Source: a virus
Taxonomy: Duplodnaviria > Heunggongvirae > Uroviricota > Caudoviricetes
Virus record (IMG/VR): IMGVR_UViG_2671180435_000007
Reading direction: 5' to 3' (one strand)
DNA: 5,581 bases
This document shows positions 2,528-5,581 of this stretch, in pieces. Position 1 is the stretch's first letter. The number at the start of each line of letters is the position of its first letter. A program made the position numbers and the translations under genes. The notes beneath the pieces were generated by a model. It searched no databases. It saw only the letters and a program-made list of their open reading frames with translations, and was not told where the DNA came from.

Positions 2528-3937
2528 ATGGCCCGCATGTTTGATACATTAGGATTTTACATTATGAATGTGCAACATTTTGATTTTTTTACAGATAATG
2601 AGTTTTCTAATCTGGAAAGATATCAAACTTGTAAAGCCATGGCCAAAGGTTATGCGGGCAATTACAAAACCGGGCAGTCAAGGTTGATGCATGCCCGCTC
2701 ATACTGCTTCAGCATCGTAGCTGCATATTGGGATACCCTTGCAAAAAAGCAAAAAAGCAGCATTAAAATGAGGGCAGTACCGCACACTGTTTACATAGAA
2801 GACATTCCATGTGATGCACGCGAGCTCGCTGAACGAACAGGTGAGCTTATTGCTCAATTTCCGGCGGAGGACGCTGGATATCTGATTGGGTCAATTTATA
2901 CGGTAATGCTGCCATCCGCTTACCGTTCGGAATTGGGGGCTTACTATACCCCCCCACCTTTGGTAGCGCGTCTCTTGGACCTGGCTGAAAAGTCTGGTGT
3001 TGATTTTTCTCATGCATCGGTTATTGATCCTGCGTGTGGTGGCGGTGCATTNNNNNNNNNNNNNNNNNNNNNNNNNNNNNNNNNNNNNNNNNNNNNNNNN
3101 NNNNNNNNNNNNNNNNNNNNNNNNNNNNNNNNNNNNNNNNNNNNNNNNNNNNNNNNNNNNNNNNNNNNNNNNNNNNNNNNNNNNNNNNNNNNNNNNNNNN
3201 NNNNNNNNNNNNNNNNNNNNNNNNNNNNNNNNNNNNNNNNNNNNNNNNNNNNNNNNNNNNNNNNNNNNNNNNNNNNNNNNNNNNNNNNNNNNNNNNNNNN
3301 NNNNNNNNNNNNNNNNNNNNNNNNNNNNNNNNNNNNNNNNNNNNNNNNNNNNNNNNNNNNNNNNNNNNNNNNNNNNNNNNNNNNNNNNNNNNNNNNNNNN
3401 NNNNNNNNNNNNNNNNNNNNNNNNNNNNNNNNNNNNNNNNNNNNNNNNNNNNNNNNNNNNNNNNNNNNNNNNNNNNNNNNNNNNNNNNNNNNNNNNNNNN
3501 NNNNNNNNNNNNNNNNNNNNNNNNNNNNNNNNNNNNNNNNNNNNNNNNNNNNNNNNNNNNNNNNNNNNNNNNNNNNNNNNNNNNNNNNNNNNNNNNNNNN
3601 NNNNNNNNNNNNNNNNNNNNNNNNNNNNNNNNNNNNNNNNNNNNNNNNNNNNNNNNNNNNNNNNNNNNNNNNNNNNNNNNNNNNNNNNNNNNNNNNNNNN
3701 NNNNNNNNNNNNNNNNNNNNNNNNNNNNNNNNNNNNNNNNNNNNNNNNNNNNNNNNNNNNNNNNNNNNNNNNNNNNNNNNNNNNNNNNNNNNNNNNNNNN
3801 NNNNNNNNNNNNNNNNNNNNNNNNNNNNNNNNNNNNNNNNNNNNNNNNNNNNNNNNNNNNNNNNNNNNNNNNNNNNNNNNNNNNNNNNNNNNNNNNNNNN
3901 NNNNNNNNNNNNNNNNNNNNNNNNNNNNNNNCGTTAA
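2528..3937 (+). CDS. N6-adenine DNA methyltransferase, gamma class (motif X precedes motif I); only the first ~175 codons are readable
   Basis: Frame 2 opens after TGA 2519-2521. Candidate starts are ATG 2528, 2537 and 2564 (AGGA 2551-2554 lies 9 nt before 2564). Motif X-like GAYYTPPPLVARLL (2936-2977) is followed 16 residues later by the SAM-binding motif I VIDPACGGGAF (3023-3051). The ORF then enters the N run at 3052. The end coordinate 3937 is only the first in-frame stop (TAA 3935-3937) after the N run and assumes no frame change inside it. Confidence 0.65.
   Translation: MARMFDTLGFYIMNVQHFDFFTDNEFSNLERYQTCKAMAKGYAGNYKTGQSRLMHARSYCFSIVAAYWDTLAKKQKSSIKMRAVPHTVYIEDIPCDARELAERTGELIAQFPAEDAGYLIGSIYTVMLPSAYRSELGAYYTPPPLVARLLDLAEKSGVDFSHASVIDPACGGGAXXXXXXXXXXXXXXXXXXXXXXXXXXXXXXXXXXXXXXXXXXXXXXXXXXXXXXXXXXXXXXXXXXXXXXXXXXXXXXXXXXXXXXXXXXXXXXXXXXXXXXXXXXXXXXXXXXXXXXXXXXXXXXXXXXXXXXXXXXXXXXXXXXXXXXXXXXXXXXXXXXXXXXXXXXXXXXXXXXXXXXXXXXXXXXXXXXXXXXXXXXXXXXXXXXXXXXXXXXXXXXXXXXXXXXXXXXXXXXXXXXXXXXXXXXXXXXXXXXXXXXXXXXXXXXXXXXXXXXXXXXXXXXXXXXXXXXR
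3052..3931. other. N run, 880 nt: unresolved or masked sequence inside the methyltransferase ORF
   Basis: Uninterrupted n characters. The length is not a multiple of 3 (880 = 3 x 293 + 1). Confidence 1.
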
Positions 3938-3995
3938 AGATGATGCCTGTTTTCTTAATGTATTAAAACAGATGTCTACGCGTTTAGCTGATCTG

Positions 3996-4761
3996 NNNNN
4001 NNNNNNNNNNNNNNNNNNNNNNNNNNNNNNNNNNNNNNNNNNNNNNNNNNNNNNNNNNNNNNNNNNNNNNNNNNNNNNNNNNNNNNNNNNNNNNNNNNNN
4101 NNNNNNNNNNNNNNNNNNNNNNNNNNNNNNNNNNNNNNNNNNNNNNNNNNNNNNNNNNNNNNNNNNNNNNNNNNNNNNNNNNNNNNNNNNNNNNNNNNNN
4201 NNNNNNNNNNNNNNNNNNNNNNNNNNNNNNNNNNNNNNNNNNNNNNNNNNNNNNNNNNNNNNNNNNNNNNNNNNNNNNNNNNNNNNNNNNNNNNNNNNNN
4301 NNNNNNNNNNNNNNNNNNNNNNNNNNNNNNNNNNNNNNNNNNNNNNNNNNNNNNNNNNNNNNNNNNNNNNNNNNNNNNNNNNNNNNNNNNNNNNNNNNNN
4401 NNNNNNNNNNNNNNNNNNNNNNNNNNNNNNNNNNNNNNNNNNNNNNNNNNNNNNNNNNNNNNNNNNNNNNNNNNNNNNNNNNNNNNNNNNNNNNNNNNNN
4501 NNNNNNNNNNNNNNNNNNNNNNNNNNNNNNNNNNNNNNNNNNNNNNNNNNNNNNNNNNNNNNNNNNNNNNNNNNNNNNNNNNNNNNNNNNNNNNNNNNNN
4601 NNNNNNNNNNNNNNNNNNNNNNNNNNNNNNNNNNNNNNNNNNNNNNNNNNNNNNNNNNNNNNNNNNNNNNNNNNNNNNNNNNNNNNNNNNNNNNNNNNNN
4701 NNNNNNNNNNNNNNNNNNNNNNNNNNNNNNNNNNNNNNNNNNNNNNNNNNNNNNNNNNNNN
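3996..4761. other. N run, 766 nt: unresolved or masked sequence between the methyltransferase and the endonuclease-like ORF
   Basis: Uninterrupted n characters. It is separated from the first N run by only 64 readable nt (3932-3995). Confidence 1.
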
Positions 4762-4796
4762 TAATTCGGGAAATAGCTGCAAAAACAATTTTTGTC

Positions 4797-5581
4797 ATGT
4801 TTTATGCTGGTGCGGTTGAGGGGCTGGGGCGATGGATAAGGCCCAGCCAGGTTGTAAGTATGGGAGATTCGCAGGCTGCTCTTACTGATGATGCGTCCAG
4901 AGAAAGCTGGGTAAAGATGACTTTCTCTAAACAAAAGATAAGGCCTGCTGATGCATGGTATGCGGAAAATACGCGTGAGCCAATACGTGATGAAACTATA
5001 AAAAATGGCCTAATACCTTGCAATGCAATTGTTGAGCGTAAAGGTATACCCACCACATCCTCTCGTCCTCGTTACAGTTTGAATCGCTCTTTTGCAGCAC
5101 TCTTTGATGCCGGGCTTGAAGGAGATTCGCTGCTGAGTGCAATAAGTTCCTGGCAAGAAAATCATTTGAACAAAGCCGCTCTTGCTAGGTTGCGTTTATT
5201 GAAATCAGGGGCAGTGATTGCTGCTGATGCCGTAGTCGTCACTTTCCCAAATGGAGAGAAGAGAACTTTAGCTCCGGGCCCGTCAAGTACAATAGCTAAG
5301 GCCGTCATCGAAGTTTTTGCTCCTAATTTTCTTAAGAATCCAACTGTGCTCTGGTTGTCTGAATCCGGGAATAAAGTTGTTGCTCAGGATGATGTATTGG
5401 CAAAAGCATTGGGGCTGAATATTGATGCCTCAAAAGCACTTCCAGATATTATTTTGATTGATTTGGGAGAGGACCGAACGGGTTCGGACATGCTTGTAGT
5501 TTTCACTGAAGTAGTTGCGACAGATGGGCCTATAAACAGGGAACGAAAAGTTACTCTCACTCATTTGGCTATTGACGCTGG
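4797..5581 (+). CDS. BsuBI/PstI-family-like restriction endonuclease (partial: 3' end beyond the window, 5' end uncertain)
   Basis: Frame 3 is open from the end of the N run (4762) to the window end with no stop. Candidate starts are ATG 4797, 4860 and 4917, none with a strong SD. Translation: ..RPADAWYAENTREPIRDETIKNGLIPCNAIVERKGIPTTSSRPRYSLNRSFAALFDAGLEGDSLLSAISSWQENHL..GPSSTIAKAVIEVFAPNFLKNPTVLWLSESGNKVVAQDDVLAKALGLNIDASKALPDIILIDLGEDRTGSDMLVVFTEVVATDGPINRERKVTLTHLAIDAG. The PD..ID..(loop)..hydrophobic strand-E-V-V pattern and overall layout resemble the BsuBI/PstI endonuclease family. This is recognition from memory, not a search result. Confidence 0.5.
   Translation, partial: MFYAGAVEGLGRWIRPSQVVSMGDSQAALTDDASRESWVKMTFSKQKIRPADAWYAENTREPIRDETIKNGLIPCNAIVERKGIPTTSSRPRYSLNRSFAALFDAGLEGDSLLSAISSWQENHLNKAALARLRLLKSGAVIAADAVVVTFPNGEKRTLAPGPSSTIAKAVIEVFAPNFLKNPTVLWLSESGNKVVAQDDVLAKALGLNIDASKALPDIILIDLGEDRTGSDMLVVFTEVVATDGPINRERKVTLTHLAIDA

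What the first reader, a model, noticed from the sequence alone, without database searches (positions are those of the whole stretch)
2528..5581. Candidate prophage-borne restriction-modification or defence locus: gamma-class m6A methyltransferase plus BsuBI/PstI-like endonuclease downstream of the replication genes
Seen in sequence: a + strand ORF from 2528 carries motif X (GAYYTPPPLVARLL) before motif I (VIDPACGGGAF). The window ends in a long open frame whose product ends with ..ALPDIILIDLGEDRTGSDMLVVFTEVVATDGPI... Established knowledge: the X-then-I order defines gamma-class amino-methyltransferases (TaqI, PstI/BsuBI, Eco57I, HsdM, PglX), and M.PstI/M.BsuBI pair with BsuBI/PstI-family endonucleases. 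Inference: the two visible ends belong to one system carried as cargo where lambdoid prophages usually have nin/Q-region genes. With more than half of the locus unreadable, it could equally be a plain PstI-like Type II system, an orphan phage methyltransferase next to an unrelated nuclease, or a multi-gene system.
Basis: partly seen in the sequence, partly recalled or inferred. Interest (0 to 1): 0.65.

Follow-up and report, generated by a model that had tools for sequence, protein, structure and literature searches.

The report
Prophage-borne PstI-family restriction-modification gene pair
The locus is an ordinary two-gene restriction-modification system: a DNA adenine methyltransferase followed by a PstI/BsuBI-family cutting enzyme, carried as cargo in a lambda-like prophage, already annotated in public genomes and very common in Shigella sonnei.

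Summary
Unmasked loci that match the visible window sequence at 99.9-100% show one 610-aa gamma-class N6-adenine methyltransferase. A 360-aa BsuBI/PstI-family endonuclease follows it directly, with a 4-nt ATGA overlap, and nothing lies in the masked part except the rest of these two genes. The visible endonuclease fragment alone hits both Pfam BsuBI/PstI domains (E 8e-29 and 1e-25). The catalytic residues defined in SdaI are conserved in 111-112 of 112 relatives. A methyltransferase sits immediately upstream in 111 of 112 related loci across many phyla. The 3.2-kb cassette is 44% GC against 50-51% in its flanks. It fills a variable slot between the replication genes and the DUF968/RusA/Q genes of a Rac/Qin-like prophage. 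Relatives sit in the same slot in other lambdoid phages and after gpA in a P2-like phage.

It is a "long" subfamily, only about 27% identical to the characterised Stx-phage EcoGIII (CTGCAG) system, so its recognition site is unproven. RefSeq and PADLOC already annotate it. It occurs in 2 of 5426 complete E. coli genomes but on at least 1000 contigs, most of them named Shigella sonnei. The finding is real but ordinary.

The parts
2318..2563 (+). Left arm and leader of the cassette. Homology to RM-less Rac/Qin-like prophages stops at about 2317. The arm contains a conserved extended -10-like element, TGATATTCT, at 2484-2492, and an AGGA Shine-Dalgarno-like element at 2551-2554.
   Evidence: The megablast match of the upstream flank to 3930 E. 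coli genomes ends at L001 12018, which is window 2317. ATTCT is invariant in six diverse cassettes. The standard sigma-70 scan found no promoter here, so the promoter is an inference.
2528..4677 (+). Gamma-class N6-adenine DNA methyltransferase. It is 610 aa from the annotated ATG at 2528 and 598 aa from the more likely start at 2564. Motif X lies at 2936-2965 and motif I at 3017-3049. The island 3932-3995 is aa 401-421. NPPY and most of the target-recognition domain are masked. The end coordinate of 4677 is extrapolated from the right-hand visible segment and lies inside an N run.
   Evidence: Eco57I 1.8e-13, N6_Mtase 1.9e-9 on the unmasked copy; PADLOC MTase_II PDLC03338, 994 bits, full length; M.TaqI; start codon.
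4674..5581 (+). BsuBI/PstI-family Type II restriction endonuclease, 360 aa in unmasked copies. The start is extrapolated and masked. The visible part, 4764-5579, is aa 31-302, and the gene runs off the window end. The PD motif (P257-D258) is at 5442-5447, E279 at 5508-5510 and R291 at 5544-5546.
   Evidence: (PF06616 8.4e-29 and PF17728 1.3e-25 on the visible part).
716..2313 (+). Prophage context, not part of the system. It holds a DnaC/IstB-like loader (716-1462), a DUF977 gene (1477-1899) and a 118/137-aa zinc-ribbon ORF (1900/1957-2313).

Best explanation
The locus is a self-contained 3.2-kb, two-gene Type II restriction-modification cassette. It sits in the variable cargo slot between the replication genes and the DUF968/RusA/Q genes of a Rac/Qin-like lambdoid prophage.

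Shown:
- The first gene encodes a gamma-class SAM-dependent N6-adenine methyltransferase with a C-terminal target-recognition domain and an extra N-terminal region of about 110 aa.
- The second gene overlaps the first by ATGA. It encodes a two-domain endonuclease of the BsuBI/PstI/SdaI family, with an N-terminal HTH DNA-binding domain and a C-terminal PD-(D/E)XK-type domain. The SdaI catalytic residues are conserved.
- The gene pair is kept together across phyla.

Inferred:
- The methylase marks a short palindromic site on the host and prophage DNA.
- The endonuclease, probably a dimer, cuts incoming unmethylated phage or plasmid DNA at that site. This protects the lysogen from superinfection and, as with other Type II systems, makes loss of the element costly.
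- M-before-R order with translational coupling gives methylation a head start after transfer.
- The site most likely contains CTGCAG (my estimate is about 0.55), because every characterised family member I know of shares that core. At about 27% identity to those enzymes this is a guess.
For: Gene pair:
- RefSeq annotates the identical proteins as WP_000113425.1 (methyltransferase) and WP_001053102.1 (BsuBI/PstI family type II restriction endonuclease), adjacent in E. coli FDAARGOS_943.
- Visible window sequence is 99.9-100% identical to that locus and to other unmasked loci, L084 closest.

Endonuclease:
- Pfam PF06616 and PF17728 hit both the window fragment and the full protein.
- PADLOC has full-length REase_II (426 bits) and MTase_II (994 bits) models.
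- SdaI is the only PDB sequence hit (1.8e-16) and the only significant fold hit (3.6e-11).
- In SdaI, E248, K251 and R260 act in catalysis, with R260 the more important of K251 and R260 (PMC3045609).
- The equivalent positions here are P257-D258 (112/112), E279 (112/112) and R291 (111/112).

Methyltransferase:
- The motif order is X, I, then NPPY. M.TaqI is the best solved relative, and the motif residues are at least 97% conserved in 103 homologues.

Linkage and architecture:
- An upstream same-strand methyltransferase is present in 111 of 112 loci.
- The M/R junction could be scored in 107 of the 112 loci. Of these, 66 have a 4-nt overlap and 11 a 1-nt overlap.

Cargo status:
- GC content is 43.9% against 50-51% in the flanks.
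- The flanks are shared with thousands of E. coli prophages that lack the cassette.
- The same subfamily sits after replication genes in other lambdoid phages and after gpA in a P2-like phage, and on conjugative plasmids.

Precedent: the prophage-borne EcoGIII system methylates and cuts CTGCAG and protects against lambda-like phages (PMC6602927, PMC3893438).
Against: - No activity, methylation or expression data were available.
- More than half of the window's own copy is masked. The mask lengths do not fit an intact gene (+205 and +112 nt), so this particular copy could be disrupted.
- No sigma-70 promoter passed the standard scan upstream of the methylase. The cassette lies in the early-right operon, which is repressed in a lysogen.
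- Identity to any biochemically characterised enzyme is low: 27% to the EcoGIII-type endonuclease and 25% to its methylase.
- The Lys of SdaI's EXXK motif is Ala here in 111 of 112 sequences. It is also Thr in the EcoGIII-type enzyme, whose near-identical relatives are reported active.
- CTGCAG is not avoided in the carrying prophage: 6 sites against 8.7 expected. This is uninformative either way.
- The AlphaFold model of the catalytic domain was poor, with pLDDT 35-60.
Confidence: 0.85

Rival explanations
1. The cassette works mainly during lytic growth. It is transcribed with the early-right (replication) operon after induction, so it methylates progeny phage DNA and degrades host or competitor DNA. 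It is largely silent in the lysogen.
For: - It lies directly downstream of the O/P-like, DnaC-like and DUF977 genes on the same strand.
- No standard promoter was found in the 214-nt gap.
- Phage-borne methyltransferases near Q are common in related prophages.
- From memory only: classical enzyme screens of S. sonnei reported SsoI and SsoII but no chromosomal PstI-like activity.
Against: - A conserved extended -10-like element travels with the cassette in unrelated phage backbones, including a P2-like phage.
- In S. sonnei-type chromosomes the cassette is kept intact in a prophage remnant that has lost its late genes to IS1. That makes sense only if it serves the cell.
- The same subfamily is common on plasmids and chromosomes with no phage context.
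- Simultaneous first expression of R and M on an unmethylated host would also cut the phage's own template.
Confidence: 0.12
2. In the genome the window comes from, the system is a decaying relic. The methyltransferase, and possibly the endonuclease start, is disrupted inside the masked stretches.
For: - The N runs are 205 and 112 nt longer than the homologous sequence, each +1 mod 3.
- Disrupted copies exist. A 254-bp mini-IS interrupts the endonuclease in L131.
- One-base deletions at a C7 and an A7 run break the methylase in L126 and L129.
- The neighbouring replication-organizer gene in the window shows two frame switches at poly-A runs.
Against: - All visible parts are 99.9-100% identical to intact copies and contain no stop codons.
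- A broken methylase next to an intact endonuclease would be lethal if the endonuclease is active.
- The mask mismatch may simply mean the masks do not preserve length.
- The homopolymer differences look like long-read sequencing errors.
Confidence: 0.12
3. The pair is an orphan phage methyltransferase lying by chance next to an unrelated nuclease.
For: Orphan methylases are frequent in this region of lambdoid prophages.
Against: - The M-R pair is present in 111 of 112 loci across many phyla, with overlapping or abutting reading frames.
- Both genes share the same foreign GC content and the same insertion boundaries.
Confidence: 0.01
4. The genes are part of a larger multi-gene system: Type I (suggested by the RefSeq name 'HsdM family'), BREX (PglX-like) or Type IIG.
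For: There are weak hits to PglX, MAD2, Type I methylase and Type IIG models.
Against: - The PglX hits score 18-38 bits against cutoffs of 400-900.
- The cassette is only 3.2 kb with tight boundaries and holds exactly two genes.
- There is no HsdS, HsdR or BREX gene in any of the annotated neighbourhoods.
- The methylase and nuclease are separate polypeptides.
Confidence: 0.01

Closest known systems
EcoGIII (and near-identical Eco95JB1III and ECRM13514_3159/3160), the PstI-like R-M of Stx2a prophages
   Same: - It is a two-gene M-then-R cassette with overlapping genes, carried by a lambdoid prophage of E. coli.
- It pairs a gamma-class m6A methylase with a BsuBI/PstI-family endonuclease.
- It is documented to methylate CTGCAG and to restrict lambda-like phages (PMC6602927, PMC3893438).
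- It has the same PD...E...(+12)R catalytic pattern.
   Different: - Identity is only 27% for the endonuclease and 25% for the methylase.
- Its proteins are shorter: 317 and 489 aa against 360 and 598-610 aa.
- It sits immediately downstream of cI in the immunity region, not after the replication genes.
- The methylase in the window has an N-terminal extension of about 110 aa before motif X.
- No cultured-phage record in INPHARED carries the long subfamily.
PstI / BsuBI prototypes (Pfam PF06616 and PF17728; second-best PADLOC models, PDLC03420 for the endonuclease and PDLC03227 for the methylase)
   Same: The domain architecture of both proteins is the same, and so are the gene order and the enzyme class.
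   Different: These models match at 97 and 170 bits. The dedicated long-subfamily models match at 426 and 994 bits. A shared specificity (CTGCAG) is therefore not shown.
SdaI (PDB 2ixs; recognises CCTGCAGG according to my own knowledge)
   Same: - It is the only solved relative: phmmer E 1.8e-16 over aa 96-349, and Foldseek E 3.6e-11.
- It has the two-domain layout.
- E248 and R260 correspond to E279 and R291.
   Different: - K251 of its EXXK motif is Ala282 here.
- Foldseek sequence identity is 19%.
- The global TM-score is low (0.23-0.26), because my model of the catalytic domain was poor.
YenI-type fused methylase-endonuclease (probably PADLOC PDLC03359, 840 positions; the assignment is from memory)
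   Same: Both halves are homologous. The methylase matches the N-terminal part of the model and the endonuclease matches positions 595-831.
   Different: Here the two activities are separate polypeptides.

Membership tests
BsuBI/PstI family Type II restriction endonuclease | C-terminal catalytic domain PF06616 above the gathering score | tested here: met
   The visible window fragment scores 100.4 bits and the full protein 152.2 bits, against a cutoff of 27.
BsuBI/PstI family Type II restriction endonuclease | N-terminal HTH DNA-binding domain PF17728 | tested here: met
   The window fragment scores 90.3 bits and the full protein 106.6 bits, against a cutoff of 27.
BsuBI/PstI family Type II restriction endonuclease | Catalytic residues as defined in SdaI (PD, E248, R260; K251 secondary) | tested here: met
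   P257-D258 and E279 are present in 112 of 112 sequences, and R291 in 111 of 112. The K251 equivalent is Ala, but it is Thr in the active EcoGIII-type enzyme.
BsuBI/PstI family Type II restriction endonuclease | Paired with an adjacent gamma-class N6-adenine methyltransferase | tested here: met
   This holds in 111 of 112 loci, on the same strand and abutting or overlapping.
BsuBI/PstI family Type II restriction endonuclease | Recognition and cleavage of CTGCAG (or a site containing it) | not testable with these tools
   No REBASE access or methylome data were available. Identity to characterised enzymes is only 27%.
Gamma-class N6-adenine DNA methyltransferase (M.TaqI-like) | Motif order X, then I, then IV (NPPY), with a C-terminal target-recognition domain | tested here: met
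   Motifs X and I are visible in the window. NPPY (aa 260-263) and the conserved C-terminal half are seen in the unmasked 99.9-100% identical copies.
Type I R-M (suggested by the RefSeq name 'HsdM family') | HsdS and HsdR partner genes | tested here: not met
   No such genes occur in any annotated neighbourhood, and the partner is a Type II endonuclease.
BREX (PglX methyltransferase) | Score above the NCBIfam PglX cutoffs, and neighbouring BREX genes | tested here: not met
   Scores are 18-38 bits against cutoffs of 400-900. There are no BREX genes nearby.
C-protein-controlled Type II R-M | A small HTH controller gene and C-box upstream of R | tested here: not met
   M and R overlap by 4 nt, and the 214-nt leader holds only 16-22 codon ORFs.
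Prophage cargo ('moron') in the replication-to-Q interval | Flanks conserved in related prophages that lack the insert, plus atypical composition | tested here: met
   The left boundary is at L001 12018 and the right boundary at about 15195. Other genes fill the slot in L116 and L117. GC content is 43.9% against 50-51%.

The most novel reading that the evidence does not exclude
The 'long' subfamily has a recognition sequence different from CTGCAG. The subfamily pairs a 598-610-aa methylase carrying an uncharacterised N-terminal domain with a 360-aa endonuclease. It is the single near-universal Type II barrier of Shigella sonnei, held in an IS1-truncated prophage remnant. It therefore helps to determine which phages and plasmids that pathogen can acquire.
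Probability: 0.3. Interest if true: 0.4.

Novelty: already known. Interest (0 to 1): 0.18.

Why it matters
The finding matters little as a discovery. Both proteins already carry RefSeq names, PADLOC has dedicated models for them, and prophage-borne PstI-like systems are documented in Stx phages.

Three points have modest practical value:
- This subfamily appears to be present in almost every Shigella sonnei genome but in only 2 of 5426 complete E. coli genomes. Its still-unverified target site would therefore be relevant for phage therapy and for genetic manipulation of S. sonnei.
- The cassette recurs in known phage cargo hot spots: the lambdoid replication-to-Q interval, and the region after gpA in a P2-like phage.
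- The RefSeq label 'HsdM family' is misleading for a Type II methylase.

Tried and rejected
- **Window source.** I looked for an exact source of the window. None of 133 fetched loci matches all three visible segments. The window is a mosaic: bases 1-2299 resemble one S. sonnei prophage and the cassette resembles another.
- **Direct lookup of the endonuclease's contigs.** I reached them through the neighbouring 118-aa ORF instead.
- **Structure prediction of the endonuclease.** Mean pLDDT was 64, and the catalytic domain scored 35-60. The Foldseek search found only SdaI, with low TM-scores, so the model adds little beyond the sequence evidence.
- **Specificity from CTGCAG counts and palindrome avoidance in the carrying prophage.** This was uninformative: 6 sites against 8.7 expected.
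- **Specificity from partner swapping.** Five loci pair this endonuclease subfamily with a third methylase type that is 31-36% identical to M.EcoGIII. This is not decisive.
- **Literature searches.** I searched for a characterised member or a methylome motif in S. sonnei, Xanthomonas or Burkholderia. I found only PstI-type short systems such as Psy9853I, whose two genes span 2.4 kb.
- **Missing Lys of EXXK as a sign of inactivity.** I rejected this because the EcoGIII-type enzyme lacks the Lys too and the helix Arg is conserved.
- **Sigma-70 consensus scan.** It gave nothing in the leader.
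Full report
**Observation.** The window carries two N runs, 3052-3931 and 3996-4761, which mask 54% of the flagged interval.
- The ORF from 2528 reads GAYYTPPPLVARLL (aa 137-150) and VIDPACGGGA (aa 164-173) before the mask.
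- The last 820 bases are one open frame: codons start at 4764, and 272 codons run without a stop. The frame contains ALPDIILIDLGEDRTGSDMLVVFTEVVATDGPI.
- The final F of motif I is only half readable in the window.

**Recovering the masked part.** The visible pieces match two complete E. coli chromosomes at 99.1-100%. They also match several IMG/VR contigs and about ten 4.5-5.0-Mb chromosomes. NCBI names the proteins of those chromosomes Shigella sonnei.
- In the annotated copy (E. coli FDAARGOS_943, locus L001), a 610-aa 'HsdM family class I SAM-dependent methyltransferase' (WP_000113425.1) is followed by a 360-aa 'BsuBI/PstI family type II restriction endonuclease' (WP_001053102.1). The stop and start codons overlap as ATGA.
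- The small visible island at 3932-3995 is methylase aa 401-421.
- The masked region therefore hides no further gene.
- One inconsistency remains. In all unmasked copies the two masked stretches are 675 and 654 nt, but the window has 880 and 766 N, which is +205 and +112, each +1 mod 3. Either the masks do not preserve length or this copy has indels. I cannot tell which, so statements about the masked part rest on the near-identical loci.

**The endonuclease.**
- The visible fragment alone hits PF06616 (E 8.4e-29) and PF17728 (E 1.3e-25). The full protein gives 9.3e-45 and 1.2e-30.
- PADLOC has a full-length REase_II model, PDLC03589, at 426 bits.
- SdaI is the only solved relative. It matches at E 1.8e-16 by sequence and 3.6e-11 by Foldseek. 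My AlphaFold model of the catalytic domain was poor.
- According to PMC3045609, SdaI uses E248, K251 of an EXXK motif, and R260 in the following helix, with R260 the more important of the two basic residues.
- In the phmmer alignment these correspond to E279, A282 and R291. In 112 relatives, PD257-258 and E279 are invariant, R291 is present in 111 and A282 in 111.
- The EcoGIII-type enzyme, reported to be biochemically active, has Thr at the Lys position and also keeps the Arg at +12. The missing Lys is therefore no argument against activity.

**The methyltransferase.**
- The motif order is X (aa 137-146), then I (164-175), then NPPY (260-263), followed by a conserved C-terminal half.
- M.TaqI is the best solved relative.
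- Pfam gives Eco57I at 1.8e-13 and N6_Mtase at 1.9e-9. PADLOC MTase_II PDLC03338 matches end to end at 994 bits.
- PglX, MAD2, Type I and Type IIG models match only weakly, far below their cutoffs.
- Motif X starts at residue 137, against about residue 28 in the EcoGIII-type methylase. This protein therefore has an extra N-terminal region of about 110 aa. That region is moderately conserved within the subfamily and has no Pfam match.
- The true start is probably the ATG at window 2564. Close homologues start with MNVQHFD, an AGGA precedes that codon, and in L090 the annotated ATG is ATA followed by a 1-nt deletion.

**One system, not two neighbours.** I fetched 80 loci from species-representative genomes and 32 from IMG/VR using an endonuclease alignment.
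- In 111 of 112 loci a methyltransferase homologue lies directly upstream on the same strand. The exception begins at the endonuclease start codon.
- Among the 107 junctions that could be scored, 66 have a 4-nt overlap and 11 a 1-nt overlap.
- The hosts span Proteobacteria, Acidobacteriota, Chloroflexota, Bacteroidota, Planctomycetota and Firmicutes.
- In five loci the partner is a different gamma-class methylase type.

**Context.**
- Upstream in the window lie a DnaC/IstB-like loader, a DUF977 gene and a zinc-ribbon ORF.
- In L001 the pair lies between these genes and a ParDE toxin-antitoxin pair, then DUF968, RusA and Q. The prophage is integrated next to potC.
- Homology of the left flank to 3930 E. 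coli genomes stops at L001 12018, which is window 2317.
- Homology of the right flank resumes about 55 nt after the endonuclease stop. It is shared at 80% or greater coverage with 326 genomes that lack the cassette.
- In such prophages the slot holds other small genes, IS3, hokD or a small methylase.
- The cassette is 43.9% GC against 50-51% in its flanks.
- Relatives at 73-91% identity occupy the same position in other lambdoid contigs: after a DnaT-domain replication protein (L088) or after lambda O/P (L096), and before DUF968/Q. A relative at 76% identity lies between gpA and the portal gene of a P2-like phage.
- The subfamily is also found on 88 plasmids at full length, mostly conjugative or mobilizable.
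- 'Prophage cargo' is therefore supported.

**Distribution.**
- Only 2 of 5426 complete E. coli genomes carry the cassette.
- The exact endonuclease sequence is recorded on at least 1000 contigs, most of them named Shigella sonnei.
- In those chromosomes an IS1 sits about 200 nt after the endonuclease. The late prophage genes are gone, and chromosomal genes (mannitol dehydrogenase, YdfZ, a GntR regulator) follow.
- A PADLOC survey counted 982 Type II systems in 994 S. sonnei genomes and called the species uniform in R-M content (PMC13293514). This is consistent with this cassette being that system, but the link is my inference.

**Comparison with what is known.** The closest documented analogue is EcoGIII of Stx2a prophages. 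It methylates CTGCAG, restricts lambda-like phages and changes host transcription (PMC6602927, PMC3893438).
- tblastn against 50,697 phage records found only that type, at 27-28% identity, in 97 records.
- The EcoGIII-type system is shorter (489 and 317 aa) and sits right after cI.
- The system in the window is therefore a distinct, longer subfamily of the same family.
- All characterised members I know of share the CTGCAG core: PstI, BsuBI, EcoGIII, Psy9853I, YenI, and SdaI/SbfI with CCTGCAGG. Part of this list is from memory.
- CTGCAG is therefore my best guess for the site, at roughly 0.55.
- I found no published or computable evidence for the site.

**Mechanism and open points.** The identity of both enzymes, their linkage and their cargo status are shown. 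Activity, the recognition site, dimeric cleavage, superinfection exclusion and the addiction effect are inferred.
- Expression in the lysogen is unresolved. The consensus scan found no promoter.
- However, a TGnTATTCT element at window 2484-2492 is conserved, with ATTCT invariant in six divergent cassettes on different phage backbones. This suggests a cassette-borne extended -10 promoter.

**Verdict.** It is an ordinary Type II restriction-modification pair that is already annotated. I score novelty as 'already known' and interest as low. The residual interest lies in the unverified specificity and the near-fixation in S. sonnei.

Noticed in passing
window 3052-3931 and 3996-4761: The N runs are 205 and 112 nt longer than the corresponding sequence in every unmasked near-identical locus (675 and 654 nt). 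Each excess is +1 mod 3, so the three visible gene pieces are out of frame with one another in window coordinates.
   Followed up: partly
window 1-709: The replication-organizer-like gene reads through three frames, switching at an A8 run (238-245) and an A6 run (about 401-406). This is either homopolymer sequencing error or a pseudogene.
   Followed up: partly
window 1-2299 versus 2318-5581: The window is a mosaic. Bases 1-2299 are 99.3% identical to a different S. sonnei-type prophage, which carries QueH and hok after the 118-aa ORF (L118-L123). The cassette matches the R-M-bearing prophage (L124-L132).
   Followed up: partly
window 2947-2953 (C7 run inside methylase motif X, TPPP): Two of ten S. 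sonnei-type assemblies (L126, L129) have C6 here. L129 also lacks one A in an A7 run. Both changes frameshift the methylase next to an intact endonuclease. This is probably long-read error, but it could be a slippage hot spot.
   Followed up: partly
L131 10081-10334: In one S. sonnei-type chromosome (CP029794.1) the endonuclease gene is interrupted by a 254-bp element whose ends (TGAAGTGG...CCACTTCA) are inverted repeats. It looks like an internally deleted IS3-family element.
   Followed up: partly
L124-L132, about 10691-11388: An IS1 lies about 200 nt downstream of the endonuclease in S. sonnei-type chromosomes. The rest of the prophage is missing, and chromosomal genes (mannitol dehydrogenase, YdfZ, a GntR regulator) follow. 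The R-M pair survives in a prophage remnant.
   Followed up: no
L001 15181-15755 (just beyond the window end): A ParE/ParD toxin-antitoxin pair on the opposite strand abuts the cassette in E. coli FDAARGOS_943. It belongs to the common prophage backbone (328 genomes), not to the cassette.
   Followed up: yes
window 2528-2563: The first 12 codons of the annotated methylase ORF are probably not translated. The likely start is the ATG at 2564, preceded by AGGA at 2551-2554.
   Followed up: yes
window 2484-2492: The element TGATATTCT resembles an extended -10. ATTCT is invariant in six divergent cassettes carried on lambdoid and P2-like backbones.
   Followed up: partly
L024, L026, L050, L112, L113: In these loci the endonuclease subfamily (46-60% identity to the window's enzyme) is paired with a different gamma-class methylase. 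That methylase is 31-36% identical to M.EcoGIII and 25-28% identical to the window's methylase. L050 also has a short extra ORF with similarity to the N-terminus of the PstI-type endonuclease.
   Followed up: partly
L058 6101-7292: The methylase homologue is split by an insertion of about 1.2 kb in a Paracoccaceae genome.
   Followed up: no
L001 methylase aa 13-120 (window 2564-2887): This N-terminal region of about 110 aa is conserved within the subfamily (RYQTCKAMAKGYA..., ARSYC...YW). It has no Pfam match and is absent from PstI/EcoGIII-type methylases. Its function is unknown.
   Followed up: partly
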